From: a candidate division WWE3 bacterium RIFOXYC1_FULL_40_10
GTDB taxonomy: Bacteria > Patescibacteriota > WWE3 > UBA101185 > UBA10185
Direction: 5' to 3'
NCBI GenBank assembly: GCA_001773215.1
Contig: MEWB01000001.1
Location: forward strand, 242,488-306,487
Length of the DNA: 64,000 nucleotides
Shown: in pieces, positions 26,389 to 55,977 of the stretch
Layout of the letters: the number at the start of each line of letters is the position of its first letter
Position numbering within the stretch: position 1 is the first letter of the stretch
Translations under genes and position numbers: made by a program
The notes under the pieces: generated by a model
Database searches by the model: none
The model's input: the letters and a program-made list of their open reading frames with translations, nothing else
Told to the model about the DNA's origin: nothing

Positions 26389-27108
26389 CTATTTTATAGA
26401 TACTGTAAACATTTCGTGAAATATATTATTCGCTGGAATTCCGTTTTCAACCAGCATATTTAAGGTGTCCTGTACCATATCCGGATGGCCGCAGATCAAG
26501 TATTGAGTGTTTTCCCTTTGAATCTCTATAAAGTTGGTTACTCGGCCTTGTTTAGTATTCTTTTCGGTGGCTTGTTCTCTGGATATGCAAATTTCGTAAG
26601 AAAAATTGGGTAATTCACTAGCCATTTTATCTAAAATATCTTTTTTGAATATTTCTTCACACACTTTTACCCCAAAATAAACTTTAATTGCGGACTCGCA
26701 CTTACTATGGCTTAAAGAGGAAAGCATGGAAAGGATCGGAGCTATTCCTGTTCCCGTGGCAATAAATACTAGGCTTTCGGCCAACAGCTCAGGCAGTATA
26801 AATCTCCCCGAAGGGCCTATAAATGTGATCTCCTGGCCTACCGACAGGTTTTTAAGGTAATTCGACCCTATCCCATCATGATCCACAGCGGCTAAGATAC
26901 TTATTGAGTCTTTGATGCCGGCATCCGAGCTAATTGAATAAGACCTAAAGCATGTTTCACCCACTTTCAAATTGATGAACTGCCCCGGAAGAAAAGCAAT
27001 TTCAGGAGGTGATGTCAATTTAAAAACAAACTCTACTACCTTGGAATTTAGTGTTTTCTTACTTTCTACAACTGCAGCATGCTTTAGAGGTTTTGGGAAT
27101 AGAAACAT
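26389..27108 (-). CDS. FAD/NAD(P)-binding oxidoreductase of the ferredoxin-NADP reductase-like family
   Basis: 239 aa; RSYSISS (RxYS FAD motif), GTGIAP NAD(P) motif. Confidence 0.65.
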   Translation of the reverse strand: MFLFPKPLKHAAVVESKKTLNSKVVEFVFKLTSPPEIAFLPGQFINLKVGETCFRSYSISSDAGIKDSISILAAVDHDGIGSNYLKNLSVGQEITFIGPSGRFILPELLAESLVFIATGTGIAPILSMLSSLSHSKCESAIKVYFGVKVCEEIFKKDILDKMASELPNFSYEICISREQATEKNTKQGRVTNFIEIQRENTQYLICGHPDMVQDTLNMLVENGIPANNIFHEMFTVSIK

Positions 27109-44951: not shown

Positions 44952-44990
44952 GGCCGGGTTACACGATTCTTGTGTTATCCGGCCTTTTTT
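44952..44990 (+). terminator. Rho-independent terminator (GGCCGGGTTACAC...GTGTTATCCGGCC + T6)
   Basis: Imperfect 13-bp stem then TTTTTT; T-run overlaps stop of convergent permease gene. Confidence 0.5.
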
Positions 44991-46200
44991 ACTCGTACCT
45001 TAATGCCTCGATAGGCTGAAGTTTAGATGCCTTTTGGGCAGGGTACCATCCAAACACAAGTCCAATAATAGTCGAGACGCTAAACGCCAACACGATCGAG
45101 GGTAAAGATATAACAGTTGGTAAACTCAGTGCTTTGGTCAAAATTATCGAAACTGCAATTCCTACTGCAACACCTACTCCCCCGCCGCTTACTGTTAGCA
45201 AAATTGCCTCTATTAAAAATTGGGTAATAATTGTTTTTCTTTTTGCTCCTAATGCCTTTCTTATCCCGATTTCTCTGGTTCTTTCGGTAACTGTAACTAG
45301 CATAATATTCATTATTCCAATTCCTCCTACAATCAACGATATGGCAGCAATTCCGGCAAGAAGAGTTGTGAATGTACCTGTAACTTGGCTTACTGTTTCT
45401 AAAATGTCTTCCTGCGAAAGTATAGAAAAGTCAGCCTTATCTGGGCTTTCAATATTGTGCCTTTCTAACAAAAAGTAACCCACTTGGTTCTTGGCTTCAT
45501 CCATCAAACTTTCATCTTTTGCGCTAACATAAATTGAGCTAAGATGGTTTACCCCAAATAGCGATTTCTGGGCTGTTTTCAGGGGAATGTAGACAGTATC
45601 GTCTCCGCCACTTGAACCTTTCTCTTTGGCAATACCTAATACTCTGTAAGTTGTTCCTTTTACTCGGATACTTTTCCCAATTGGGTCCTGGTTGCTAAAT
45701 AGAGATTCCTTTAAACCAAATCCTATTACTGCAACCTTATTTACAAGTAGATTATCTTGTTCAGTAATTTCTGATCCTGTGTCCATTTCTATATTTCTAA
45801 GGCCAAAGTAATTCTCAGTAATTCCTGCAATAGTTAAATTGTCATTTACGCCTTCATATGAAACTTGAGCCCTTCCGGAATATTCGGCTGCGACTTTATC
45901 GATTGTTGAAAAGCGTAGCGATTGTGACATAGAGATGGCGTCTTCACTTGTTAATGTTGTTCCCCCGCTGCTGGAGTCTCTTATGAATCCTCGGGATTCC
46001 GAACCTGGCCTTATGATAAGCAGGTTTGATCCCAAGGATTGAATTCTTTGTTTTACGCTTTGTTGGCTGGCTTGCCCTAGGGTTATTAAGGCAATAACAG
46101 AACCAATGCCAATAACAATTCCCAGCATCGAGAGTGCTGTTCTCATTCGATTGCTTTTAAGTACAGAAATGCTTTCTTCTATTAGTTCAACTATTCTCAT
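44989..46200 (-). CDS. ABC transporter permease, FtsX/MacB family
   Basis: 403 aa; N-terminal TM, large periplasmic domain, C-terminal 3 TM (FtsX-like). Confidence 0.85.
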   Translation of the reverse strand: MRIVELIEESISVLKSNRMRTALSMLGIVIGIGSVIALITLGQASQQSVKQRIQSLGSNLLIIRPGSESRGFIRDSSSGGTTLTSEDAISMSQSLRFSTIDKVAAEYSGRAQVSYEGVNDNLTIAGITENYFGLRNIEMDTGSEITEQDNLLVNKVAVIGFGLKESLFSNQDPIGKSIRVKGTTYRVLGIAKEKGSSGGDDTVYIPLKTAQKSLFGVNHLSSIYVSAKDESLMDEAKNQVGYFLLERHNIESPDKADFSILSQEDILETVSQVTGTFTTLLAGIAAISLIVGGIGIMNIMLVTVTERTREIGIRKALGAKRKTIITQFLIEAILLTVSGGGVGVAVGIAVSIILTKALSLPTVISLPSIVLAFSVSTIIGLVFGWYPAQKASKLQPIEALRYE

Positions 46201-46898
46201 CTGTCCCCTTTAATCTTTCCATCTGCCAAGGTTAGAACTCTGTTACATCTTGCAGCAATAAAATCTTCGTGAGTGACGACAATTATTGTGTGTCCTTTGT
46301 TGTTTAGCTGTTCAAAAATATCCATAATTTCATTCCCCTGCGAACTTGGTAAATTTCCGGTTGGCTCGTCTGCCAAAATGATGCTTGGTTCCATCGAGAG
46401 AGCTCGTGCAATTGCCACTCGCTGTTTCTGTCCCCCCGATAGTTGATTCGGATAACTCTTAAGTTTGTTTCCCAATCCGACTAGTGTTAACATTTCTCCA
46501 GCCCTTTGATGTCTTTTGGACTTTGGAATACCGGCATAGGTCATTGGTAAAGTAACATTTTGAAGTGCTGATGTTCGTGGGAGCAAGTTATAGGCTTGAA
46601 ACACAAAGCCTATCTCTTTATTTCTGATTTCGGCCAGGTCATCATCTTTGAGTTTTTCTATGTTTTTCCCGTTTAATATGTAGGTTCCCGAGCTTGGAAC
46701 GTCTAGGGCTCCTAATATGTGCATCAATGTAGATTTACCTGATCCAGATGGGCCCATAATTGCAACAAACTCCCCCTTATTAATCCCGAATGAGATGTCA
46801 TCAAGTGCCTTTGTTTGTAGCTGTCCGTCGATATAAATTTTGGAAAGGTTCTTTACTTCTATCATTTTATCTCCCAAAGCCGGGAATAAATCCCCCAC
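46197..46898 (-). CDS. ABC transporter ATP-binding protein (MacB/LolD-type)
   Basis: Walker [10 protein letters not shown], signature [15 protein letters not shown], Walker B ILADEPT. Confidence 0.9.
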
Positions 46899-48096
46899 CC
46901 TGGCGATTAGTCTGCGGGCTAGTTGTAGTAAATCCGCTGGTTGGTAAACTGTTTATTACAACTTCCTCCCCTTCGGATACTCCGGACAGAATCTCGGTAA
47001 AGTCAGTAGTTTTGATTCCCATTTCAACCTTTGTGTCTACAAACTGCTCTCCCTTTTTAACCTTAACACTGGTTTCGCCTTTTCGCGTAGTTATTGCAGA
47101 GGTAGGAACGTAAAGAACATCTTGCTTTTCCGCAATAACGATGTCGCCATCAACACCCATGTTTGGCAAAACTTTATCCTGTTCCGCATCAAACTTTACG
47201 ATTACGGGATAATTAGATACTCCACTAGATACCGTTCCAATTTTGTCTATTCCTACAACTTTTCCGTTAAAGGTTTGTTTTGGCAAGCTGTTTAAGGTTA
47301 AGTACACAGTTTGACTGACACTAATCTTATTAATATCCACCTCTGAAACGTTCAAAGAGGCTATCGGAGTCCCTTCACGCTTTATGGAGGCTACAGTTGC
47401 AGAAGTTCTTTCCGAAAGTGAGTTTGCAATATCCATTCCCTCTACTACGACAATGTTTGCGATAGTACCGCTTTCCGGTGCTAATATTTGTGGGGATGCC
47501 GCCTGATAAGCCAGCCAAGCCTTGTTCAATGAAGCTTTAGCTTGTTGTATTGAATTTTCCTGACTCTCATAATCTGCTTTAGCAGTTAGGTATGTATTTT
47601 CCGCTAATTTGTAGGAAACCCTTTCATCATGCGTTTGGTAGCTATTTCCCTCTTTTTCTGTATCAAAGGACTCTGTTGCGTTTATTAAAGCGGATTCTAA
47701 AGCATATAGCTTATTATTTGCTGAATCCAGCGAATTTTTTGCAGACAAATAGGTGTTCCAAGCTTGAGATAAGCTTTCCTGCCCGTCGGAATTTAGTGTC
47801 ACACTCATTAACTTCTGGCCCTTTGAAACTACTTCCCCCTCTTTTACATAAACTTTTTCAACAATTCCGTTCACTGCTGTTGTAACCGGAAGGTAATTAG
47901 CACTTTCGATTTGGCCTGATGAGGATACAGAGTCCTTTAAAGTACCTCTCTGTACTTTAGCAGTTAGTGTTTGAGTTTTAGATTGGCTTAAGATCTTATA
48001 CTTAGCTTGGTTGGTATAAATGAAGTAACCGCCTATTGCTAATCCGGTGATTAGAAGTGTTACAAATAGCCTTTTTCGTGTTATGAGTTTACGCAT
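46867..48096 (-). CDS. Periplasmic adaptor (HlyD/MacA-family membrane fusion protein)
   Basis: 409 aa; N-terminal TM, coiled-coil and beta-barrel region; operon with ABC ATPase and permease. Confidence 0.8.
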   Translation of the reverse strand: MRKLITRKRLFVTLLITGLAIGGYFIYTNQAKYKILSQSKTQTLTAKVQRGTLKDSVSSSGQIESANYLPVTTAVNGIVEKVYVKEGEVVSKGQKLMSVTLNSDGQESLSQAWNTYLSAKNSLDSANNKLYALESALINATESFDTEKEGNSYQTHDERVSYKLAENTYLTAKADYESQENSIQQAKASLNKAWLAYQAASPQILAPESGTIANIVVVEGMDIANSLSERTSATVASIKREGTPIASLNVSEVDINKISVSQTVYLTLNSLPKQTFNGKVVGIDKIGTVSSGVSNYPVIVKFDAEQDKVLPNMGVDGDIVIAEKQDVLYVPTSAITTRKGETSVKVKKGEQFVDTKVEMGIKTTDFTEILSGVSEGEEVVINSLPTSGFTTTSPQTNRQGGGFIPGFGR

Positions 48097-48211
48097 ATCC
48101 TATATATTACACTCCTAAGGCAAGATTTATTTCATTTCTGGCAAAATATAAGCCAAAAAAAATCCGGCCCGCTGATAAAATATAATCAGTGAACCGGATC
48201 GTAGTGAATCT

Positions 48212-48442
48212 TTATAGTTTTCCCATTTTTTTGAGCTGAATTTCGACTTTCACTAACAGCTCGATTCCAGGTAATTCCTCTTTAAACAAACTGTAGGCCC
48301 TTTTGGGGTCCTTATGGTCAGAGATCAACTTTACAATCTCTTCAAAGTTGTCTCTTGAATCAAACAACAAGTCCCTAAACTCCATATCCCGCTCTGCTTG
48401 GGACTTTTTGGCAGGGTAGATTATTGCTGGAAAGAATAACAT
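48212..48442 (-). CDS. Small hypothetical protein (76 aa)
   Basis: ORF track only. Confidence 0.3.
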   Translation of the reverse strand: MLFFPAIIYPAKKSQAERDMEFRDLLFDSRDNFEEIVKLISDHKDPKRAYSLFKEELPGIELLVKVEIQLKKMGKL

Positions 48443-49443
48443 TAGTTCTCCTTTTTCAGGTTGAGCGCTCCCTTGGCGAAGCAGAGTGTTTCAACCGAAT
48501 CCTCGCAAGGATCGATCCAGATCAGAAAGAAGAAACTTTCTGCTCCGGAAGCGAACTGAGCAATCCCAGATAATACGGCGCCAATACTCATGCTGGTTCT
48601 GAACGCGAGCTGTGCCGCGTTGTAACTTAGCGCCCACCACCAGTACCGAAGTACAGGCGGAGTACCTTGTAGCCAGTTAGTCCGAATGCCTGAAGACAAC
48701 TCGCCTTCGGACTTAATCACTGTCCAGCCCCGGCCGGATACCCAGCTCATGGCCGCATCCACAGTCTTTTTAGCGGTATCGTAGGCGGTGATTGGAGCAC
48801 CATTTGGGCTGCAAATAAAAGCCCAAAGTCGGCCGTTGAGTTTACCAATGAAAATGTATGCCTCTTGGTAACCTCCTCCGGCTTGCCGGTAGGCAACAAT
48901 ACCACCGTTTAAGGCTGAGGAGAAAATCGCCTTGAGTGTAGCGCCTACTTCGGCGAGGTTGTAAATGTTCACACCGGTCACCCCTAAGTGATTCGTTGAG
49001 TGGAACAATACCTCAGTCCAAACATACTCGATGGTTCCACTTGAGTTGGAAACCAAATTCATAGCTTGGCCGAACGCTGCAGCTCCCTGTTGACTAACTT
49101 GAATCACTGGCACAGATACTGCTCCGGCGCTGTTGATTGAATTACGCAATCCAACTTCCAAATCGAACACGGCGGGTTGAATCTTTAGGGTGCCCTCGTT
49201 AAGAGCTGCCATTGTTATGGCTAGCTCCTGGGGATTAAGTTTTTCCACGAAAAAAGAGTCAGCGAAAAGATTAGCCCACTCTGATTCGCATTGTGGCCAA
49301 CCCGATCCCTGCCCGTCCCCCATCGAATTGCACTTTTCTACCAAATCCTGCGGATTAACCGCCTGGATCTGGGGTTGACCACAACCAACAGTGGCTGCAG
49401 CCAAAACAAAAGCCAGGATAATGGTAATCAAGTTTGTCTTCAT
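48442..49443 (-). CDS. Lipoprotein hypothetical (333 aa), high GC
   Basis: Signal peptide with VGCG lipobox; GC about 50%. Confidence 0.5.
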   Translation of the reverse strand: MKTNLITIILAFVLAAATVGCGQPQIQAVNPQDLVEKCNSMGDGQGSGWPQCESEWANLFADSFFVEKLNPQELAITMAALNEGTLKIQPAVFDLEVGLRNSINSAGAVSVPVIQVSQQGAAAFGQAMNLVSNSSGTIEYVWTEVLFHSTNHLGVTGVNIYNLAEVGATLKAIFSSALNGGIVAYRQAGGGYQEAYIFIGKLNGRLWAFICSPNGAPITAYDTAKKTVDAAMSWVSGRGWTVIKSEGELSSGIRTNWLQGTPPVLRYWWWALSYNAAQLAFRTSMSIGAVLSGIAQFASGAESFFFLIWIDPCEDSVETLCFAKGALNLKKEN

Positions 49444-49573
49444 TCCAGCCTCCTTTTGGCTGATATTACAAGATAGTTATAATGTTTATTGTAAAAGTTC
49501 TATGGGTGTAATTATACTATAGGATTATGAGTTTGGCAAGTGGTAATAGGCAAAAGCGAGGGAGTTGAGTTCT

Positions 49574-49795
49574 TCAGCCTATCGAGATAAATAAGATAAT
49601 TAGGGACAAGTACAAAATCCCCCACCCTATTGTCCAGCCTAACAGCAAGAATGCGTCTTTGTACTGTTTTTCCCAAAAAAGGATAGCTGATTTGCCAAGC
49701 ACTAGGGAACACGTTATTACTGCGGAAATTATAAACAATAGCAACATTACAATAGGTGCGAAAAATTCCGATGAATACCTAAAAACTTGTTGCAA
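49574..49795 (-). CDS. Small two-TM membrane protein (73 aa)
   Basis: ORF track; hydrophobic. Confidence 0.3.
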   Translation of the reverse strand: MQQVFRYSSEFFAPIVMLLLFIISAVITCSLVLGKSAILFWEKQYKDAFLLLGWTIGWGILYLSLIILFISIG

Positions 49796-49857
49796 GGTAC
49801 CAAGAAAAATAGAGATCAGAAAGATATAAATAACCAGGCCTGTTGCTTGAAATAAAG

Positions 49858-50079
49858 CTATGAAAGGGAGGGAGAGTTTTTTCGTAGTTTTAACCTTTGA
49901 ATAATTAAATACACGATAGGTAATATTCCAATCGAGTTAACAACGAGAATTGCAGCGTACCAGTACTTGTGATTATTTCTGGCAGATACCCATAATGAAA
50001 TACCTTTCCATGTCATTTCCCAAATAACAAGTCCCATAATCACATAAGGATTTTGCAAGTAAATAGCTAGGGAATTCAT
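49858..50079 (-). CDS. Small two-TM membrane protein (73 aa)
   Basis: ORF track; hydrophobic. Confidence 0.3.
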   Translation of the reverse strand: MNSLAIYLQNPYVIMGLVIWEMTWKGISLWVSARNNHKYWYAAILVVNSIGILPIVYLIIQRLKLRKNSPSLS

Positions 50080-50093
50080 ACATTACTATTATA

Positions 50094-50987
50094 CTACTTT
50101 TCTGCAGATACTTGGGACTTGATAGATTGAATAAAATACTTTTTAGCGAAGATTCTAACTAATAAAAGTGTTGTTACGATAATGACAGAAATTAGGTAGA
50201 TGCCTTGTGCCCACAGCTGGTTTGAGTCACTCCCAGTTAAGATGCCGTGGAAAAGGAAGAGCAAATAAAAACCAAAACTTGTGTAGTGGATTGCTCGCCA
50301 GATTTTGGGTTTAATTACCTTCCCCCGCAACTTTGATGTACTTACCAGCACTAAAGCTAAATATGTCGCTAGTATTCCCAGGGAAATCGGCAGGTTTAAA
50401 TCGAATCCCAAAGCGGATTTAAAGGTGCGAATTACAGTAAATGGAATTAGTATTTCGGGGAGGGTTAGTTTAATAGTCGAATCAAACATGAGGGAGCCTG
50501 CGTGAATAACAACCAACGCCAATCCAATGATAGAGGCGGAAAAACTGTGTGTTTCTAATGCGGTTGGCGCACTAAAAACCTTGAACTTGAGCAAAAACTT
50601 TGAGGTCATTAACAGGCCAAAGCATGTCACCCAGGTAAAAACAACAAACGCAGCGATTCCGCTAATTCTTCCTATATACCACATAACCGGGGATCCGGTT
50701 CGGAATAATGGCTGAGCAACGTCTAGTTTGTAAGTATTAAGTAGATTTGAGCCAGGGTCAGTAGGATTTGTATTATCGAGTATTTCCTGTGCGTCTAGTA
50801 CACCATCCTCGTCCGTGTCGGCTTTGGTTCGATCAGTGTGATAAGTGGTAATTTCTGCATCATCGGTAAGGCCGTCCATGTCGGAATCTTGGGTTGTTTC
50901 AGCCAAGCTGAAGTTAGTGCTGAGAGCTATAGTTGCCACAACCAAGGTAAGTAGTATTTTTCTTATTTGATCATGCTTTCCAAACAT
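50094..50987 (-). CDS. Ferric-reductase-like bis-haem transmembrane protein (MsrQ/YedZ-like) with N-terminal secreted Ca-binding (TSP3-like DxDxDG) repeats
   Basis: 297 aa; signal peptide; DSDMDGLTDD / DTDEDGVLD repeats; two TM helices each with His pairs spaced 13-15 residues (HSFSASIIGLALVVIH, HYTSFGFYLLFLFH). Confidence 0.55.
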   Translation of the reverse strand: MFGKHDQIRKILLTLVVATIALSTNFSLAETTQDSDMDGLTDDAEITTYHTDRTKADTDEDGVLDAQEILDNTNPTDPGSNLLNTYKLDVAQPLFRTGSPVMWYIGRISGIAAFVVFTWVTCFGLLMTSKFLLKFKVFSAPTALETHSFSASIIGLALVVIHAGSLMFDSTIKLTLPEILIPFTVIRTFKSALGFDLNLPISLGILATYLALVLVSTSKLRGKVIKPKIWRAIHYTSFGFYLLFLFHGILTGSDSNQLWAQGIYLISVIIVTTLLLVRIFAKKYFIQSIKSQVSAEK

Positions 50988-51918
50988 ATTTTAGTGCACT
51001 TTCCGACGAGTGAATTTTTCCATCTTTAGCTATTAAAATTGCAGGGATCTGATTGCTATTGCAATACTCAAGGCCCTTGTTAAGTCCCTTGATAACAATC
51101 ACTTTTGCCATAATATCACAATAAACTGTGGAGTTGCCAATTACAGTAACCGTTTCCAAGTCGCCCTGTATACTCCTACCCGAAGCGGGGTCAATTAGGT
51201 GATTTTTAATTATGCCGTCCGCCAGCCATTTTCGTCTATTAACCCCAGATGTGGCAATTGCCTGGTTGCTCACTAAAAGCGTGGGACTGTTTAAAAGGCA
51301 TCTATCCACAAAAGGATTTTCAATCTCGATAGCCCAGTATGGATACTTTTGTTTGGAATCTATCCCCGCCAGATACATATCTCCTCCTGCTTCAATGCAA
51401 TAATTTGCATATTTAGCTTGTAAAAACTCAACTGCCTTGTCTAATATGTAGCCTTTCCCGATCCCTCCCAGATCTATTTTTAAATTACTGGGTTTTACAA
51501 CAGTATGAGTGGATTCATCCAGTTGTACCATCCCAAAATTATATTTTTCCAAAACGGGTGTTTTCCATTGTTTTTTCCCGGGAAGTCCTTTTTTAAAGCT
51601 TTGGTTATAACCTTCACTCACTAAAGATGGAAGGATAGAAGGCTCAAAAACGCCGGCGGTTTTTTGGAAATAGTCCTTTGCGAGTACTAACATTCCCATC
51701 ATTTCATCGGATACCGCCAGTGCCGTTGCATTGTTTAATTTAGCTAGCTCATTAGTAGTAGAAAATCGGTTAAAATTGTTATCAAATCTTTGTAGCATCT
51801 TTACTACGTTGACTATGTCCTTATGAATTTCGTCGTGAGACCTAGTTTGGGATGCAACAGCAACATAGATATCTGTTGCCATGATTTTTTGTTTTAATTC
51901 AAGGTCGACAAAGTTCAT
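50971..51918 (-). CDS. apbE: FAD:protein FMN transferase (ApbE family)
   Basis: 315 aa; ApbE signature HLIDPASG and overall family resemblance. Confidence 0.8.
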   Translation of the reverse strand: MNFVDLELKQKIMATDIYVAVASQTRSHDEIHKDIVNVVKMLQRFDNNFNRFSTTNELAKLNNATALAVSDEMMGMLVLAKDYFQKTAGVFEPSILPSLVSEGYNQSFKKGLPGKKQWKTPVLEKYNFGMVQLDESTHTVVKPSNLKIDLGGIGKGYILDKAVEFLQAKYANYCIEAGGDMYLAGIDSKQKYPYWAIEIENPFVDRCLLNSPTLLVSNQAIATSGVNRRKWLADGIIKNHLIDPASGRSIQGDLETVTVIGNSTVYCDIMAKVIVIKGLNKGLEYCNSNQIPAILIAKDGKIHSSESALKYVWKA

Positions 51919-52382
51919 TCCAAATTGTCCAGAATACCGTTAGTGTTGAGGTCTTCAAAGTCTACTAAGGAGAAATCGTCTTCGCCCGGTTTTTGGTCCA
52001 GCGCATTAGGAACCGAATCCCCGTCATCATCAGTGAATAACTCTTTCTCGAGGATAGAAGGGTTTGGATCCAAAGCATCTACCAAGCCGTCTTTATCAGA
52101 GTCTCTGTCGTAGCCGGAATCTACAACAGTAATATAGTTAACAACTTGTTCGGGTATGTCCGGCTCAGCTTGCAGCAGCTGTACGACTTCTGTCCACTCC
52201 TCAACTTCGTTATCTTCATCATCTTCCCCTCGTTCTCTCTCATCCTCATCTTCATCCTCTTCCTCGTCATCTTCAGCGTACACTTTATCGATAGTTGTGT
52301 AATTCGGTGAATAGTTGTCAATCGTTATATTTGAAACAAGCGAGGAGACTATAAGTAATAATAGCAACAAGTATTTTTTCAT
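51915..52382 (-). CDS. Secreted highly acidic protein with TSP3-like Ca-binding repeats (155 aa)
   Basis: Signal peptide; DRDSDKDGLVDALD, TDDDGDSVPNALD repeats; 4-nt overlap with apbE. Confidence 0.5.
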   Translation of the reverse strand: MKKYLLLLLLIVSSLVSNITIDNYSPNYTTIDKVYAEDDEEEDEDEDERERGEDDEDNEVEEWTEVVQLLQAEPDIPEQVVNYITVVDSGYDRDSDKDGLVDALDPNPSILEKELFTDDDGDSVPNALDQKPGEDDFSLVDFEDLNTNGILDNLE

Positions 52383-52384
52383 AA

Positions 52385-52801
52385 TTATGAGGTTTTTGTT
52401 TTTGGTTTAGATTGAGGTTTAGTCACTGTAATAGTTTGGGCAGCTGTGTTGTTACTTAAGGATTGGGGAGCCACTGTGCCTGAAACAGTAGGCGTATTTG
52501 TGTCGGGAACAGTTCTCGTATGGAGCGAAATCAGTCCGGGTTGTGTCATCAAGGCGTTTTCGTAGTTGGTTCTTGTACTAAGCATTTTCTGGGTATTTTC
52601 TTCCTTTATCTTAGCTACCTGAGAAGCGTATTGGTCTTTATACAATTGCCAGCCGGAGTACAGCTCTTGATAGTATTGTTGCTCTGCCATATACTTTTGA
52701 AGTTTTCTATACTGCTCGCTGGAAGATACTCCAAACGTGGTTGCACCTATAGTTAGTGCGGTGGTTATTAATGCTATAAGCCTAAGTTTAGTAGTTTTCA
52801 T
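52385..52801 (-). CDS. Secreted hypothetical protein (start at MKTTKL)
   Basis: ORF 52385..52813; signal peptide, Thr/Pro-rich C-terminus. Confidence 0.45.
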   Translation of the reverse strand: MKTTKLRLIALITTALTIGATTFGVSSSEQYRKLQKYMAEQQYYQELYSGWQLYKDQYASQVAKIKEENTQKMLSTRTNYENALMTQPGLISLHTRTVPDTNTPTVSGTVAPQSLSNNTAAQTITVTKPQSKPKTKTS

Positions 52802-52831
52802 AGCAGATAACATATTATATCACATCTATAT

Positions 52832-53269
52832 GTGCTAGTATTGTTTCCGATGAACAATAATACCTATTACAAAATCATAATGCTGCTTAGTGTGTTTGGA
52901 ATGGTTCTAGCATTCTATCTTTTTTACAATTACTTAACCCGGCCGGCTTTTCAAATTTGTACAATTAGTGAAACAATAAATTGTGATGAAGTTACGAAAG
53001 GTACACTTTCTACTCTTTTTGGGGTGCCGGTTTCTTTGGTAGGTTTACTAGGCTATTTGGGAATATTAATGGCCGCCTCGTTGGCTAAACCAAAAGTAAT
53101 TTTAGGGTTTGCACTTTTTGGAACCTTATTTTGTTTACGCCTTACTATTTTGGAGATTTTTGTAGTAAAAGTTATTTGTCCGGTTTGTATCGCCTGCCAG
53201 ATTAACATGCTGGTAATCCTTTTTCTTTCTATTGTCCACAGCAAAAAACCTGTTTTAAATGAAAGTTAA
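52832..53269 (+). CDS. VKOR/DsbB-like membrane thiol oxidoreductase
   Basis: 145 aa; 4 TM; loop Cys pair (CTISETINC) and TM4 CPVC redox motif typical of vitamin K epoxide reductase homologs. Confidence 0.55.
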   Translation: MLVLFPMNNNTYYKIIMLLSVFGMVLAFYLFYNYLTRPAFQICTISETINCDEVTKGTLSTLFGVPVSLVGLLGYLGILMAASLAKPKVILGFALFGTLFCLRLTILEIFVVKVICPVCIACQINMLVILFLSIVHSKKPVLNES

Positions 53270-54499
53270 AGCACACCCTTTTTTACCTATTCTTCCGGTT
53301 CGGCCTATTCGATGAATGTAGTCCATGTAGGTTGCTGGTTCATCATAATTGATAACGTGTGATATATCAGGAACGTCGATTCCTCTTGAAGCAACATCTG
53401 TAGCTACTAAAATATCAATTTCGTCGCGTTTGAACATTGATAAAATCTTGGTTCTCTGCCCTAATGATTTATTTCCATGTAAGGCATCAGCCTTATGGCC
53501 CTTTTTTCTTAAAGCTAACGCAACTTCATCAGCGCCACGTTTTGTTCTTGAAAACACTAATACCCTTTGGAACTCAGTTTTAATTAGCAATTCATGCAAA
53601 GTTTCTATTTTGCCTTTAGATGAATCTACCTTAACTACATTTTGATCAACATTTTTAACAGCAACTTGCTGGGTCAGTTCAAAAGTAACCGGGTTTCTTA
53701 ACAGAGAGTTGGCAATTTCCTTGATTTTTGAAGCCATAGTTGCGGAGAAAAATAACGACTGTCTTGTTGATTTCAATTTAGATATTATAAGCTTCACATC
53801 ATGGATAAAACCCATATCAAGCATTTGATCTACTTCATCTAACACGATAATATCAAAATCTTCCAAGATAACATTTTGTCTTTTGTATAAATCGATTAAT
53901 CTTCCGGGTGTTGCAATAATAAATTGGTGATTTCGTTTTAATAATCGTATTTGAGTAGAGTAACTTGCCCCTCCAACGATTAGAACGTCGTTGATAAAAG
54001 TATTTTGAGCAAATAATCTAAATTCTGTTTGGATCTGCTTGACTAGTTCCCTGGTTGGGGCAACTACTAAACATTTTTTTGCTGGGTCATTTAGTAAAGC
54101 GTTAATAATAGGGATTAAGAAAGCTGCGGTTTTGCCCGAACCTGTTGCAGCTTGTCCGATTATATCGCGGCCTTCCAAAATAGGTGCAATAACCTGGGCC
54201 TGAATCTTTGTAGGATGAATATAATTGTGAGCACTAATGTTTTTAAGTAATTTTGGATTTAATTTGAAATCTGAAAAGGTCATTTGTCTCTCATACATGT
54301 TTTCTTGAGAGGTAGTTGTGTCTGTTGCTCTAGAAACATACATTTCATGGCTAATAAAATCTCCTCTATATGGATTACGTCTGCGGGCTCTTCCTCCCCC
54401 ACCCCAAGAACCGGAAGAATATCTCGAAGTTCTTCGAGATCTATTATGTCCAAACGCAGATGAACTACGTCTATTTGTAGAGCTGTAACTATTTATCAT
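53255..54499 (-). CDS. DEAD-box ATP-dependent RNA helicase with N-terminal Arg/Ser/Gly-rich low-complexity region
   Basis: Q motif/ PTKIQ, Walker A AATGSGKT, DEVD (DEAD-type), SAT, HRIGRTGR. Confidence 0.9.
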   Translation of the reverse strand: MINSYSSTNRRSSSAFGHNRSRRTSRYSSGSWGGGGRARRRNPYRGDFISHEMYVSRATDTTTSQENMYERQMTFSDFKLNPKLLKNISAHNYIHPTKIQAQVIAPILEGRDIIGQAATGSGKTAAFLIPIINALLNDPAKKCLVVAPTRELVKQIQTEFRLFAQNTFINDVLIVGGASYSTQIRLLKRNHQFIIATPGRLIDLYKRQNVILEDFDIIVLDEVDQMLDMGFIHDVKLIISKLKSTRQSLFFSATMASKIKEIANSLLRNPVTFELTQQVAVKNVDQNVVKVDSSKGKIETLHELLIKTEFQRVLVFSRTKRGADEVALALRKKGHKADALHGNKSLGQRTKILSMFKRDEIDILVATDVASRGIDVPDISHVINYDEPATYMDYIHRIGRTGRIGKKGCALTFI

Positions 54500-54593
54500 A
54501 TTGTATTAGTTGGATGAGCAAAACGGATGAAAGCTAACGGGTAAGGCCACTTCGATCAATTTCGATCAATCACATGGATCATAGTACCACACT

Positions 54594-54962
54594 TTGGAAA
54601 ATATTGCTTGTATAGGTGGGGTGTATAATTTACAAAGTATGCTAACTTGTCCGGTTTGTTTAAAAGAAATCCACGAAGGGAATGTTTTCTGCCCGCACTG
54701 TGGAATTAAGATACCCACCACCAACCCCCCGCTCTCAACCTGGTCGAAAATGAAAATATATTTAGTCACCGTGTTTTTAGCACCTTTTGGGCTATATTGG
54801 TTCTTTAAATATTTTAGAGAGTCTGATTCTGAAAAACGGAAGGTCGCCTACATTGTGTTGGTAATAACATTGGTTACTCTAGCATTTTCGGTGTTCTCTG
54901 GAATGTACGTGATGAAGTATTACACTAACTACATAAATACGATGATGCTCGGCGGGCTATAA
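54594..54962 (+). CDS. Zinc-ribbon membrane protein (CPVC...CPHC then 2 TM)
   Basis: ORF track; start may be internal MLTCPVC. Confidence 0.45.
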   Translation: MENIACIGGVYNLQSMLTCPVCLKEIHEGNVFCPHCGIKIPTTNPPLSTWSKMKIYLVTVFLAPFGLYWFFKYFRESDSEKRKVAYIVLVITLVTLAFSVFSGMYVMKYYTNYINTMMLGGL

Positions 54963-54998: not shown

Positions 54999-55385
54999 CT
55001 ATTTTCCACCTGCTATTTCGTAGTCCTCGGGTTTAACGCCAACTAATTCTCCCCTCCCGATGCAGTTTGAGAGTGTGAACCGTGACCAGTAAAAAGGTCT
55101 GTGAGTTATCTCCCCAAGCAAAACAAGTGCCATGGGCAACTGGGAATGGAAGTCAATACCTGAGATGGAGAGCTCAGCGTCAATTTTTTCGATTCCTTCG
55201 TCGACCCATAAGTCAAAGATTGGACCGTTCGCATCACCTATAAGTTTCCCCTTCCAGTACAAGCTGAAAGCGAGCATGAGTTTGTGAGCTTTTGGGTCCA
55301 GGTAAAGCAGTATATCCTTTGCTTCCAACACTTCTCCAGTTTCTGGTGCAACCCAAGGTTTTAAACTAATACGAATTTTCCGCAT
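54999..55385 (-). CDS. Hypothetical protein (128 aa)
   Basis: ORF track; AAGGAGAAAGAT SD. Confidence 0.45.
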   Translation of the reverse strand: MRKIRISLKPWVAPETGEVLEAKDILLYLDPKAHKLMLAFSLYWKGKLIGDANGPIFDLWVDEGIEKIDAELSISGIDFHSQLPMALVLLGEITHRPFYWSRFTLSNCIGRGELVGVKPEDYEIAGGK

Positions 55386-55455: not shown

Positions 55456-55977
55456 ATGAATTTGTTTCATATGTTTGGCTACTCATGCAAACGCTACATT
55501 ACTCCAATTCTGGTTGATGGGAAACGCCCGCAGACCTACATAGAACTTGGCTACCCCAGATCCCCCGCTCATGCAGGATCTTTTTTCTACGCCGAAGATT
55601 TATGGGTGCCTGACCCCCGAACAGCAAGCCTCCAAATTTATGCGCCTGCCTCAGGGGTAGCGGTATATTTAGTGCAACATAACACAGTTTGGGGTTCCAC
55701 TAAGGAGTATCAGAAGTATTTAAACATCATTACCGTTCAGGTAACCGGAAAATTTCGAGAACCTGGTGGTGAGTTTTATGAGTTAGCTCATTTAGCGGCC
55801 AACTCATGTCCTTTTCAAGTAGGGCAAAAAGTAAAGGCCGGAGATCTTCTAGGAAAAACGGGTTTAAACGGCTGGATCACACTCACCGACGGAGTCGTAG
55901 ATTCCCATCTGCATTTTATGGTAGGAGTGTGGGGTGAAAATGGTAGCTTTAAGTCACTAAGAATTCGGAGAAGGTGA
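55456..55977 (+). CDS. Peptidase M23 (LytM)-like protein
   Basis: 173 aa; GKTGLNGWITLTDGVVDSHLHFMV resembles the M23 GxTGxSTGPHLHFE block; AAAGGAGAGG SD. Confidence 0.5.
   Translation: MNLFHMFGYSCKRYITPILVDGKRPQTYIELGYPRSPAHAGSFFYAEDLWVPDPRTASLQIYAPASGVAVYLVQHNTVWGSTKEYQKYLNIITVQVTGKFREPGGEFYELAHLAANSCPFQVGQKVKAGDLLGKTGLNGWITLTDGVVDSHLHFMVGVWGENGSFKSLRIRRR

What the first reader, a model, noticed from the sequence alone, without database searches (positions are those of the whole stretch)
50094..53269. Extracytoplasmic redox module: ApbE flavin transferase, bis-haem ferric-reductase-like membrane protein, Ca-binding-repeat proteins and a divergent VKOR homolog
Four minus-strand genes with overlapping stops and starts form one operon. 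They are a secreted 142-aa protein, a secreted poly-acidic TSP3-repeat protein, ApbE (HLIDPASG), and a fusion of TSP3-like DxDxDG repeats to a ferric-reductase-type TM domain. Two of that fusion's helices each carry His pairs 13-15 residues apart, the typical bis-haem ligands. The fusion resembles MsrQ/YedZ, but no MsrP molybdoenzyme partner is present. Instead it pairs with the flavin transferase, like recently described ApbE-associated extracytosolic electron-transfer systems. I could not find the flavinylation target motif ([DE]xx[ST]GA[ST]) in the neighbours, so the acceptor is elsewhere or unrecognised. The VKOR-like CxxC protein is transcribed divergently and would supply disulfide oxidation in the same compartment.
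Basis: partly seen in the sequence, partly recalled or inferred. Interest (0 to 1): 0.55.

Follow-up and report, generated by a model that had tools for sequence, protein, structure and literature searches.

The report
Split NOX-like electron exporter with cytoplasmic ApbE
A tiny-genome WWE3 (candidate phyla radiation) bacterium carries a conserved gene module for a two-haem membrane "wire" that moves electrons out of the cell, paired with a flavin-attaching enzyme that is unexpectedly cytoplasmic and probably tags the tail end of a small anchored partner protein.

Summary
Four tightly packed minus-strand genes (A, B, ApbE, FRD) and a divergent VKOR gene lie at the stated coordinates.

- **ApbE:** passes its profile (176 bits).
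- **FRD:** a ferric-reductase-domain protein with four invariant His. Its best fold matches are STEAP2, SpNOX, NOX5 and DUOX1.
- **Module conservation:** A-B-ApbE-FRD recurs in 11-12 of 13 independent Patescibacteria loci. A simpler form occurs in Gaiellaceae.

New points:
1. The four His make it the bis-haem NOX/FRE type, not MsrQ.
2. The missing NAD(P)H dehydrogenase is in the window at 26389-27108. Relatives have it adjacent or fused to FRD.
3. ApbE has no signal peptide. The same holds for all 120 closest homologues. A Lys replaces the Mg-ligand Thr288 of Ftp.
4. Protein A ends T-K-T-S. 57 of 59 family members end T-x-[TAS]-S, and four end T-G-A-S, the canonical flavinylation motif. A is therefore the likely unrecognised acceptor.
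5. VKOR is real but adjacent only here.
6. Protein B fails TSP3 profiles.

Still inferred: flavinylation of A, its timing before export, and the terminal electron acceptor. I rate it a new variant of the "MsrQ-like" flavinylation clusters.

The parts
52385..52813 (-). Protein A: an N-terminal signal-anchor helix (N-terminus inside), a long helix with a conserved 'QQPxLI' motif, an S/T-rich linker, and a basic C-terminal tail ending ...KPQSKPKTKTS-COOH. It is the candidate ApbE substrate, with the terminal Ser as acceptor. The likely true start is Met5 at 52801.
   Evidence: orthologue alignments; 62 family representatives among 1.84e9 proteins; the 100 % match is 138 aa; 57 of 59 end [ST]-x-[ATVS]-S-COOH, four end TGAS, and the background is 1 of 265; in L019 and L022 the A module is fused after the cytoplasmic DH through a TM helix, which fixes the topology as N-in and tail-out. 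A is present in every locus that has ApbE and absent from the ApbE-less locus L002.
51915..52382 (-). Protein B: a signal peptide, a poly-Asp/Glu stretch, and a ~70-residue C-terminal domain with three conserved Ca-loop-like motifs (DxD[ST]DxDxLVDAxDPxP; FTDxDxDxVxxAxD; the EF-hand-like DxNxNGILDxxE).
   Evidence: alignments with invariant Asp and Gly; 148 family members, all small, all from CPR, never fused to another domain. AF2 gives residues 85-155 pLDDT 80-96 with almost no regular secondary structure; no significant TSP3 profile or fold match.
50971..51918 (-). ApbE-family FAD:protein FMN transferase homologue. It is cytoplasmic (no signal peptide) and of the 'K-type': Lys replaces the Mg-ligand Thr (T288 of T. 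pallidum Ftp).
   Evidence: PF02424 at 176 bits; alignments to 6nxi, 7esa, 1vrm and 4xdt. The catalytic His of HxIDP, GGIGKG and ATSG are kept, while 'DalaT' is replaced by 'DIMAK'; 120 of 120 homologues lack a signal peptide and 118 of 120 have [DE]xx[AS]K. D284 and T288 are first-sphere Mg ligands, and T288A abolishes pyrophosphatase activity.
50094..50987 (-). FRD protein: an N-terminal helix (TM0 or a signal peptide), a TSP3-type Ca-binding insert (about residues 30-99, outside the cell), then five TM helices carrying the inner-haem ligands H147/H234 and the outer-haem ligands H162/H247. The C-terminus is cytoplasmic.
   Evidence: four His invariant in 22 sequences. AF2 pLDDT 84.5 with six helices; top Foldseek hits are STEAP2, SpNOX, NOX5 and DUOX1 (prob 0.95-1.0), and the TSP3 part hits the Bap B domain; profile alignment to STEAP1 at TS..WRxxHY..H; relatives L018 and L022 pass PF01794 and are homologous to the window protein (E=6e-17 and 3e-26). 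The fused relatives read TSP3-FRD-FAD-NAD.
26389..27108 (-). Stand-alone FNR/Fre-like NAD(P)H dehydrogenase (239 aa; RSYS and GTGIAP motifs). It is the probable cytoplasmic electron donor to the FRD, encoded 23 kb from the operon.
   Evidence: E=1e-68 to the operon-linked dehydrogenases of L007 and L002. PF00970 52.5 bits, PF00175 60 bits, PF08030 23.1 bits; the orthologue is adjacent in L001, L007, L010, L015 and L002, and fused to FRD in L011, L013 and L014.
49858..50079 (-). DUF5652 small membrane protein, 14 nt downstream of FRD. It may be co-transcribed, and its association with the module is weak.
   Evidence: PF18893 at 73 bits. DUF5652 lies within ~2.5 kb of the FRD in only 3 independent loci (window, L002/L016, L007).
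52832..53269 (+). VKOR homologue, transcribed divergently. It is a real VKOR but not part of the conserved module.
   Evidence: PF07884 at 72 bits. Read directly from the sequence: loop Cys pair 'QICTISETINC' and the CPVC active-site motif; no VKOR in any of the other loci.

Best explanation
This is a two-component NOX/FRE-type transmembrane electron exporter with a flavinylation accessory. Cytoplasmic NAD(P)H is oxidised by the FNR/Fre-like dehydrogenase (26389-27108); in relatives this enzyme is adjacent or fused, and some also have a small ferredoxin. Electrons cross the membrane through two b-haems held by H147/H234 (inner) and H162/H247 (outer) of the FRD protein. They leave on a face decorated with acidic Ca-binding modules, namely the TSP3 insert of the FRD and secreted protein B. 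ApbE is cytoplasmic. Its most likely substrate is protein A, and the FMN would go on the terminal Ser of the tail T-K-T-S-COOH, a relaxed form of [ST]-G-A-[ST]. The C-terminus is the last part of A to leave the cytoplasm, so modification would come before Sec translocation. That would place a flavin on a flexible, basic S/T-rich leash beside the outer haem, doing the job of the secreted FMN-bind protein in canonical MsrQ-like clusters and passing electrons to an external acceptor, most likely Fe(III) or another soluble or solid oxidant, possibly O2. Shown: gene content, homology, invariant His, fold, co-conservation, absence of a signal peptide on ApbE, and the tail motif. Inferred: haem binding, the electron path, flavinylation of A and its timing, Ca binding, and the acceptor.
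For: ApbE profile and retained catalytic His. FRD superfamily membership by fold, by homologues that pass the threshold and by four invariant His. A dehydrogenase that is adjacent in four module-bearing loci, fused in three, and present in the window. Fre+MsrQ is a published precedent for a split system (PMC12525009). A-B-ApbE-FRD co-occur in 11-12 of 13 loci. The one locus without ApbE (L002) also lacks A and B and has a degenerate TSP3 insert. The ApbE+FRD+A-like triad persists in distant Paceibacterota and Gaiellaceae loci. The A tail: 57 of 59 end T-x-[TAS]-S, four end TGAS, one TGAS member lies next to a B gene, and the background is 1 of 265. According to the ApbE review, ApbE tags work best at protein termini and the motif tolerates substitutions (PMC12052999). 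No canonical [ST]GA[ST] motif occurs in any real gene of the operon.
Against: No experiment exists. The window tail has Lys where the motif has Gly, and only 4 of 59 members have Gly there. ApbE is cytoplasmic while A's tail is extracytoplasmic, so the model needs flavinylation before export and passage of an FMN-Ser through SecYEG, for which I know no precedent. The Thr-to-Lys change at a first-sphere Mg ligand (T288A kills Ftp pyrophosphatase activity) might mean this clade is not a normal transferase, and the DPxTG loop is degenerate in some WWE3 members. The L019 tail does not end in the motif. CPR organisms generally lack haem and flavin synthesis (my own knowledge), so the cofactors would have to be scavenged. 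The rest of the genome could not be scanned for a canonical FMN-bind target. The terminal acceptor is unknown.
Confidence: 0.45

Rival explanations
1. The K-type ApbE is not a protein flavin transferase here. With its metal centre altered (Thr to Lys), it acts in the cytoplasm as a stable FAD-binding or flavin-delivery partner, or as a flavin-salvage enzyme, for the dehydrogenase/FRD pair. A's conserved tail would then be only a basic docking or anchoring peptide for the acidic B and TSP3 surfaces or the cell wall.
For: 118 of 120 clade members have Lys at the T288 position. T288A abolishes Ftp pyrophosphatase activity and D284A abolishes both Ftp activities. An aromatic residue at the N55 position resembles the FAD-binding N55Y variant (abstract). 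The DPxTG loop is degenerate in some members. ApbE is on the opposite side of the membrane from A's tail. The tail is strongly basic and B is strongly acidic.
Against: The catalytic His, GGIGKG and ATSG are conserved throughout. The positions conserved in A's tail (-4 T, -2 small, -1 S) are the ones conserved in the flavinylation motif, and four members have exact TGAS. A and ApbE are gained and lost together. No non-transferase role of this kind is documented for ApbE.
Confidence: 0.2
2. One reading: an ApbE-dependent extracytosolic electron-transfer system whose flavinylated acceptor is a canonical FMN-bind-type protein encoded elsewhere in the genome. A and B would be structural accessories.
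For: No strict DxxSGAT motif occurs in the operon or in any real gene of the 64-kb window. Canonical MsrQ-like clusters use an FMN-bind protein. The dehydrogenase partner of this very module is itself encoded 23 kb away, so dispersed partners do occur.
Against: ApbE is cytoplasmic in all 120 relatives. Extracytosolic flavinylation components are reported as strikingly under-represented in CPR. None of about 18 related loci shows an FMN_bind gene in the precomputed Pfam annotation. The conserved A tail is left unexplained.
Confidence: 0.15
3. An MsrQ/YedZ-type haem-flavin subunit that feeds a periplasmic-type reductase (MsrP-like) encoded elsewhere. ApbE would fix the cytosolic FMN of the MsrQ-like protein covalently.
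For: MsrQ binds FMN on its cytosolic face and is reduced by Fre, which would suit a cytoplasmic ApbE. JGI annotates some homologues as the MsrQ haem-binding subunit.
Against: All four His are invariant. The Arg that replaces the inner TM3 His in MsrQ and STEAP is absent, so the inner site should hold haem, not flavin. No MsrP gene is seen in any locus. The only invariant cytoplasmic-side Ser/Thr (T217/S218 and S129) appear to be general FRD-family features (my own knowledge, not tested).
Confidence: 0.05
4. A NOX proper: the system reduces O2 to superoxide or H2O2 at the outer haem, as SpNOX does. A, B and ApbE would be unrelated to the electron exit.
For: SpNOX, NOX5 and DUOX1 are among the top fold hits. 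The fused relatives have the FRD-FAD-NAD architecture.
Against: This does not explain the strict co-inheritance of ApbE, A and B. It concerns the acceptor and is compatible with the main model rather than a true alternative. Many CPR organisms are anaerobes (my own knowledge).
Confidence: 0.1

Closest known systems
'MsrQ-like' flavinylation-associated gene clusters (Meheust, Huang, Rivera-Lugo, Banfield and Light, eLife 2021, PMC8238504; AlphaFold follow-up in mSystems 2024, PMC11334425)
   Same: A PF01794-type membrane cytochrome is encoded next to apbE. An NAD(P)H-binding FNR-like module serves as the cytosolic donor; it is C-terminally fused in most of their clusters and in relatives L011, L013 and L014 here. 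The proposed function is electron export, and no case has been characterised biochemically.
   Different: There is no FMN-bind (PF04205) gene; proteins A and B take its place. ApbE has no signal peptide, so the clusters would have failed that study's signal-peptide filter. ApbE carries Lys at the Mg-ligand Thr position. The candidate acceptor is a disordered C-terminal tail, not a folded domain. A TSP3 Ca-binding insert sits in the cytochrome. The lineage is CPR, where that study found flavinylation strikingly under-represented, whereas their clusters are mainly actinobacterial.
E. coli Fre + MsrQ 'two-component NOX-like system' (Juillan-Binard 2017 and Caux 2021, as cited in PMC12525009)
   Same: A ~235-aa FNR-like flavin/NAD(P)H reductase is encoded apart from an FRD-superfamily membrane protein that it reduces. 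A flavin mediates between the two.
   Different: MsrQ has one haem plus a non-covalent cytosolic FMN (R77 replaces the inner His), whereas this FRD keeps four His and so should bind two haems. There is no MsrP acceptor. An ApbE is present.
Prokaryotic NADPH oxidases such as Streptococcus pneumoniae SpNOX (PDB 8qta; PMC5676040, PMC11031084) and eukaryotic NOX/FRE ferric reductases
   Same: The bis-haem FRD fold. His spacings of 14 and 13 in the distant relatives (15 and 13 in the window) match, to my recollection, those of NOX2. The fused relatives have the FRD-FAD-NAD order.
   Different: In the window the dehydrogenase is a separate gene 23 kb away. There is an extra extracytoplasmic TSP3 insert, plus the obligate ApbE, A and B partners, which are not known for any NOX.
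Cytosolic ApbE of Klebsiella pneumoniae, which flavinylates soluble fumarate reductase (Bertsova 2014, as cited in PMC12052999)
   Same: An ApbE without a signal peptide that acts in the cytoplasm.
   Different: Its substrate is a cytoplasmic enzyme with a canonical FMN_bind domain and motif. Here the only conserved candidate is a tail that ends up outside the cell.
Engineered 'flavin-tag' (Tong et al. 2021, as cited in PMC12052999)
   Same: A short unstructured peptide at a protein terminus is sufficient as an ApbE substrate, which is what A's tail would be in nature.
   Different: It is artificial and uses the canonical DxxSGAT sequence.

Membership tests
ApbE / FAD:protein FMN transferase (PF02424) | Profile match above the curated cut-off | tested here: met
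   176.3 bits against a cut-off of 25.6, covering 4-265 of 266 profile positions. PDB ApbE/Ftp/FmnB hits at E=1e-22 to 1e-13.
ApbE / FAD:protein FMN transferase (PF02424) | Catalytic His (V. cholerae H257) and the FAD-site motifs GGIxKG and ATSG | tested here: met
   'NHLIDPASG', 'GGIGKG' and 'AIATSG' align with 6nxi, 7esa and 4xdt. The His is invariant in 120 homologues.
ApbE / FAD:protein FMN transferase (PF02424) | First-sphere Mg2+ ligands Asp284 and Thr288 (Ftp_Tp numbering) | tested here: not met
   Asp is kept, but Thr288 aligns with Lys ('CDIMAK'). 118 of 120 clade members have Lys. The role of the ligand is taken from PMC4436053.
ApbE / FAD:protein FMN transferase (PF02424) | Extracytosolic location (signal peptide or lipobox); typical of the family, not universal | tested here: not met
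   Only 11-12 residues precede the core 'IMATD', with no hydrophobic segment. This holds in 12 of 12 module orthologues and 120 of 120 homologues.
ApbE / FAD:protein FMN transferase (PF02424) | FMN transfer to a Ser or Thr of a target protein | not testable with these tools
   Needs co-expression and mass spectrometry.
ApbE substrate (flavinylation motif D-x-x-[ST]-G-A-[ST]) | The motif is present in a co-encoded protein | tested here: inconclusive
   No strict or relaxed [ST]GA[ST] motif occurs in the operon proteins. Protein A ends T-K-T-S. The family consensus is T-x-[TAS]-S-COOH in 57 of 59 members, and exactly TGAS in 4 of 59.
Ferric reductase domain (FRD) superfamily (PF01794) | Profile match above the curated cut-off | tested here: inconclusive
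   The window protein scores 10.4 bits against a cut-off of 28, but is aligned over 2-120 of 121 profile positions. Homologues L018 (32.1) and L022 (34.6) pass and match the window protein at E=6e-17 and 3e-26. Many database homologues carry a precomputed PF01794 hit.
Ferric reductase domain (FRD) superfamily (PF01794) | Two bis-His pairs on two alternate TM helices | tested here: met
   H147/H162 and H234/H247 are invariant in 22 sequences and in 4 distant relatives. The helices are placed by AF2.
Ferric reductase domain (FRD) superfamily (PF01794) | Six-TM FRD fold | tested here: met
Ferric reductase domain (FRD) superfamily (PF01794) | Haem b binding | not testable with these tools
   Needs spectroscopy of the purified protein.
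MsrQ/YedZ-STEAP subgroup | Inner TM3 His replaced by Arg (MsrQ R77), giving one haem plus a cytosolic flavin | tested here: not met
   His147 is present and invariant. The criterion is taken from PMC12525009.
MsrQ/YedZ-STEAP subgroup | MsrP molybdoenzyme partner gene | tested here: not met
   No such gene appears in the annotated neighbourhoods of any locus or among the window ORFs examined.
NOX/FRE-type NAD(P)H oxidoreductase | FRD followed by FAD-binding and NAD-binding domains on one chain | tested here: not met
   The window FRD ends 17 residues after the last TM helix, and the dehydrogenase is a separate gene at 26389-27108. Relatives L011, L013 and L014 are fused.
'MsrQ-like' flavinylation-associated cluster (Meheust 2021) | A PF01794 gene within five genes of apbE | tested here: met
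   Here the two genes are adjacent and overlapping. The definition is given.
'MsrQ-like' flavinylation-associated cluster (Meheust 2021) | A signal peptide or lipidation site on ApbE or on an FMN-bind, DUF2271 or DUF3570 protein, and typically an FMN-bind gene | tested here: not met
   ApbE has no signal peptide. No FMN_bind, DUF2271 or DUF3570 hit was found for any operon protein.
Bacterial TSP3 repeat (PF18884) | Profile match, FRD insert | tested here: inconclusive
   The window scores 22.8 bits against a cut-off of 25. Orthologues pass: L020 40.7, L022 32.3, L011 26.4. The profile also hits the Ca-binding Bap B domain at E=1.6e-4.
Bacterial TSP3 repeat (PF18884) | Profile match, protein B | tested here: not met
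   0 of 12 members hit TSP3_bac, and 2 of 12 hit TSP_3 at E~0.04. Foldseek finds only thrombospondin-2 at E=7.6.
VKOR (PF07884) | Profile match plus the loop Cys pair and the CxxC motif | tested here: met
   72 bits against a cut-off of 27.5. 'QICTISETINC' and 'CPVC' were read directly from the translation.
   The VKOR search matched only the window among 18 sources.

The most novel reading that the evidence does not exclude
A natural C-terminal 'flavin-tag'. A cytoplasmic, Lys-type ApbE clade esterifies FMN to the very last Ser of a disordered basic tail, T-x-[TAS]-S-COOH, before that tail is exported. This makes a flavin on a leash at the exit of a NOX-like bis-haem wire. It would be a new class of ApbE substrate (a peptide tail, not a folded domain), a new order of events (flavinylate first, export second, so no FAD exporter is needed), and the first flavin-based extracellular electron-transfer apparatus in the candidate phyla radiation, shared with Gaiellaceae.
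Probability: 0.33. Interest if true: 0.8.

Novelty: new variant of a known kind. Interest (0 to 1): 0.62.

Why it matters
CPR/Patescibacteria are thought to be fermentative and to lack respiratory chains, and the survey that defined flavinylation-linked electron-transfer systems found them almost devoid of such systems. That survey required a signal peptide on ApbE or FMN-bind, so this module would have been filtered out. If the model holds, three things follow:
- Some CPR lineages can dump reducing equivalents, or reduce iron, outside the cell using a minimal NOX-like wire.
- ApbE substrates are not limited to folded domains with the SGAT motif, so motif-based censuses undercount flavinylation.
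- A large clade of cytoplasmic ApbEs with a rebuilt metal site has a dedicated partner, which gives a testable handle on what these enzymes do.

A short natural terminal tag recognised by a soluble ApbE would also interest people who use ApbE for protein labelling.

Tried and rejected
- **Six-frame scan for [ST]GA[ST]:** two hits only. The one at 55342 lies upstream of the first possible start codon of its ORF (55456). The one at 13394 lies in a 922-aa ORF unrelated to the module. I dismissed both.
- **FRD loop 'TGSDS' (251-255):** it follows the outer-haem His and is conserved in all relatives. I considered it as a flavinylation site and rejected it, because Asp occupies the acceptor position and the loop is extracytoplasmic.
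- **Cytoplasmic-side Ser/Thr of the FRD (S129, T217/S218):** these are invariant, but they appear to be general FRD-family features (my own knowledge), so I did not take them as specific.
- **Dehydrogenase 'GIGS' phosphate-site Ser:** not conserved in the L019 and L022 dehydrogenases.
- **Fold and profile searches of B:** nothing significant.
- **Promoter and terminator scan of 48000-54700:** not above shuffled background, 23 sites against 16.7 +/- 4.8, so I make no claim about transcript ends.
- **Window ferredoxin:** a search for the small ferredoxin found in five relatives gave nothing.
- **Literature:** searches found no paper on ApbE or FRD systems in CPR.

Full report
**Observation.** On the minus strand they are A (52813-52385, 142 aa), B (52382-51915, 155 aa), ApbE (51918-50971, 315 aa) and FRD (50987-50094, 297 aa). 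There is a 2-nt gap between A and B, a 4-nt overlap between B and ApbE, and a 17-nt overlap between ApbE and FRD. A DUF5652 gene follows FRD after 14 nt. VKOR (52832-53269) is divergent on the plus strand. ApbE matches PF02424 at 176 bits and VKOR matches PF07884 at 72 bits. On its own the FRD protein is below threshold for both Ferric_reduct (10.4 bits, E=0.72, though aligned over the whole profile) and TSP3_bac (22.8 bits against 25). A 100 % identical copy of B comes from 'candidate division WWE3 bacterium RIFOXYC1_FULL_40_10', so the window is from a WWE3 (Patescibacteria/CPR) genome.

**Is the membrane protein a ferric-reductase-domain cytochrome?** Yes, on four lines of evidence.
- A search of 5.8 billion proteins returned only 25 homologues, all from CPR where named. 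Many carry a precomputed PF01794 hit, and one also has an FAD-binding domain.
- H147, H162, H234 and H247 are invariant in a 22-sequence alignment and in four much more distant relatives.
- The AlphaFold2 model (pLDDT 84.5) has six long helices. Its four best PDB matches are STEAP2, S. pneumoniae NOX, NOX5 and DUOX1 at prob 0.95-1.0, although the E-values are weak. The N-terminal insert matches the Ca-binding Bap B domain.
- Relatives L018 and L022 pass the Pfam threshold (32.1 and 34.6 bits) and match the window protein at E=6e-17 and 3e-26.

The family profile aligns its 'TS...WRxxHY...H' block to the TM4-TM5 haem-ligand region of STEAP1.

**MsrQ or NOX type?** In MsrQ and STEAP the inner His on TM3 is replaced by Arg, and a cytosolic flavin takes the place of the inner haem. 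NOX and DUOX keep all four His and bind two haems (PMC12525009). This family keeps all four. The spacings are 14 and 13 in the distant relatives and 15 and 13 in the WWE3 subgroup. It is therefore the bis-haem NOX/FRE type. The comparison with MsrQ holds only at superfamily level.

**Gene neighbourhoods.**

| Loci | Arrangement |
|---|---|
| window | A-B-ApbE-FRD; DH 23 kb away; divergent VKOR |
| L001, L010 | A-B-ApbE-FRD-DH |
| L007 | B-ApbE-FRD-DH (contig edge) |
| L015 | Fd-A-B-ApbE-FRD-DH |
| L011, L013 | Fd-A-B-ApbE-[FRD fused to DH] |
| L014 | B-ApbE-[FRD fused to DH] (contig edge) |
| L004, L006, L012 | A-B-ApbE-FRD |
| L008 | Fd-A-B-ApbE-FRD |
| L002/L016 | Fd-FRD-DH only; degenerate TSP3 insert |

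These come from nine context look-ups and a GTDB scan, which found only 8 loci among 185,579 species representatives, all Patescibacteria. I mapped them with local HMMs. DH is an FNR-like FAD_binding_6 + NAD_binding_1 protein, and Fd is a small ferredoxin. The fused proteins read TSP3_bac - Ferric_reduct - FAD_binding_6 - NAD_binding_1, which is a NOX/FRE architecture.

The window is not missing the dehydrogenase. A 239-aa orthologue sits at 26389-27108, at E=1e-68 to the operon-linked ones. It scores 52.5 bits on PF00970, 60 on PF00175 and 23.1 on PF08030. E. coli Fre + MsrQ is a published precedent for such a split system. VKOR was found next to the module only in the window, so the proposed link to disulfide formation has no comparative support.

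**ApbE is cytoplasmic and has an altered metal site.** None of the 12 module orthologues has more than about 14 residues before the core 'IMATD'. Among the 120 closest database homologues, none has an N-terminal hydrophobic segment. Alignments to V. cholerae ApbE, Listeria FmnB, T. maritima TM1553 and T. pallidum Ftp keep the catalytic His, GGIGKG and ATSG. They place Lys where Ftp has Thr288. D284 and T288 are first-sphere ligands of the two Mg2+ ions, and T288A abolishes pyrophosphatase activity (PMC4436053). 118 of the 120 homologues have this Lys.

This 'K-type', signal-peptide-less clade extends to Moranbacteria, Paceibacterota and actinobacterial Gaiellaceae. In every context I examined it sits next to an FRD gene:
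- L018: [TM protein][TM protein][ApbE][FRD 192 aa][Fer4]...[ferredoxin reductase].
- L019: [DH-TM-tail][ApbE][FRD].
- L020: [A][B][ApbE][TSP3-FRD].
- L021: [TM][TM][ApbE][frameshifted FRD].
- L022: [DH-TM-tail][B-like][ApbE][TSP3-FRD].

The eLife 2021 survey required a signal peptide on ApbE or FMN-bind, and it reported CPR as strikingly poor in flavinylation components. Clusters like this one would have been excluded by that design.

**Where is the acceptor?** There is no [ST]GA[ST] motif in A, B or FRD.

Protein A has an N-terminal anchor, a long helix, an S/T-rich linker and a basic tail. In L019 and L022 the A module is fused behind the cytoplasmic dehydrogenase through a TM helix. That fixes the topology as N-terminus inside and tail outside.

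An exhaustive HMMER search of 1.84 billion representatives found 62 A-family clusters. Of the 59 full-length sequences:
- Thr is at position -4 in 56, and Ser at -1 in 57. Position -2 is Thr (21), Ala (21) or Ser (15).
- Four end in exactly T-G-A-S. One of those four lies directly upstream of a B gene.

The same ...T-R-T-S-COOH ending occurs in the Gaiellaceae loci. The conserved positions are the ones conserved in the canonical D-x-x-[ST]-G-A-[ST] motif. The main departure is Lys, Arg or Ser in place of Gly. The ApbE review states that tags work best at a protein terminus and that several motif positions tolerate substitution. A and ApbE are present together, or absent together, in every locus.

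**Protein B.** B has a signal peptide, a poly-Asp/Glu run and three conserved Ca-loop-like motifs, the last an EF-hand-like DxNxNGILDxxE. Its 148 relatives are all small stand-alone CPR proteins. The C-terminal 70 residues model confidently with almost no regular secondary structure. No TSP3 profile or fold match is significant. 'TSP3-repeat protein' is therefore a resemblance, not a membership.

**Mechanism proposed.**
1. NAD(P)H is oxidised by the Fre/FNR-like dehydrogenase; relatives may also use ferredoxin.
2. Electrons pass to the inner haem (H147/H234) and then the outer haem (H162/H247).
3. They then reach an FMN esterified to the terminal Ser of A's tail. The tail would be held near the exit by its basic residues binding the acidic Ca-binding surfaces of B and of the TSP3 insert.
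4. The FMN passes them to an external oxidant.

Because ApbE is cytoplasmic and the C-terminus is the last part of A to be translocated, I propose that flavinylation comes before export. This would also remove the need for an FAD exporter.

Shown here: homology, invariant residues, fold, co-conservation, the lack of a signal peptide, and the tail motif. Inferred: cofactor binding, the electron path, flavinylation and its timing, Ca binding, and the acceptor.

The weakest point is the topological one. I know of no precedent for exporting a flavinylated tail. The Thr-to-Lys change could also mean that these enzymes are not ordinary transferases. That is the main rival, which I put at 0.2.

**Comparison and novelty.** The closest described system is the uncharacterised 'MsrQ-like' flavinylation-associated cluster. 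This module shares the apbE + PF01794 + NAD(P)H-domain logic. It differs in five ways: ApbE's location and metal site, the absence of an FMN-bind protein, the candidate tail substrate, the TSP3 insert and protein B, and the lineage. Literature searches found nothing on ApbE or FRD systems in CPR. I rate it a new variant of a known kind. It is of moderate to high interest because it makes a specific, cheap experiment possible.

Noticed in passing
window 44989-48096 (-): A MacAB-type tripartite efflux set lies about 2 kb downstream of the FRD: a HlyD-like adaptor (46867-48096), an ABC ATPase (46197-46898) and a MacB_PCD/FtsX permease (44989-46200). A MacB-type system also directly follows the module in L022 and lies near it in L004. 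This could be coincidence, because CPR genomes carry several such systems.
   Followed up: partly
window 52832-53269 (+): A complete VKOR homologue (loop Cys pair plus CPVC) in a WWE3 genome. VKOR enzymes normally pass electrons to a quinone, and CPR organisms are generally thought to lack quinone synthesis (my own knowledge). Its start is only 18-48 nt from A's start, so the two divergent promoters must overlap coding sequence.
   Followed up: partly
window 49858-50079 (-) and 49574-49795 (-): A DUF5652 small membrane protein and a second 73-aa hydrophobic ORF follow the FRD gene closely (14-nt and 62-nt gaps). DUF5652 also lies within ~2.5 kb of the FRD-DH genes in L002/L016 and L007. Their function is unknown.
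   Followed up: partly
window 48442-49443 (-) and 48212-48442 (-): A 333-aa predicted lipoprotein-like protein (N-terminal 'AATVGCGQ') and an abutting 76-aa ORF have no Pfam or NCBIfam hit. A strong sigma-70-like site (11 of 12 matches) sits just upstream at 49539-49511.
   Followed up: no
ApbE homologues P0026-P0145: The Thr-to-Lys change at the Ftp T288 Mg-ligand position goes with the absence of a signal peptide across 118 of 120 homologues from several phyla. This looks like a distinct cytoplasmic ApbE subfamily. I found no description of it in the papers I read.
   Followed up: partly
L021:6850-7420: In this actinobacterial-type 1.08-Mb contig the FRD gene after ApbE is split between two reading frames and was not called as a gene. 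It is either an assembly error or a pseudogene. Riboflavin-synthesis genes (DMRL synthase, RibBA, riboflavin synthase) lie about 4 kb away.
   Followed up: no
L018:5239-8893: The Gaiellaceae locus carries two pairs of A-like anchored proteins: one type ends in an acidic ...GGNGD or ...GEHGD, the other ends in ...PTRTS. It also has a truncated ferredoxin-like ORF and a Pyr_redox_2 ferredoxin reductase in place of the FNR-like dehydrogenase. The electron-input module therefore appears to be interchangeable.
   Followed up: partly
L006 and L020, upstream of A: An ECF-type sigma-70 gene plus a ~275-aa neighbour, possibly an anti-sigma factor, are divergently adjacent to the module in two loci. L018 and L021 instead have a HAMP-HisKA kinase and an OmpR-type regulator there. 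This suggests envelope-signal regulation in some lineages; nothing comparable is present in the window.
   Followed up: no
window 55342 (+): An 'SPVSGATQGF' string matching the flavinylation core lies in frame but 38 codons upstream of the first ATG/GTG/TTG of the 55456-55977 ORF. It would be translated only from a non-standard start codon.
   Followed up: partly
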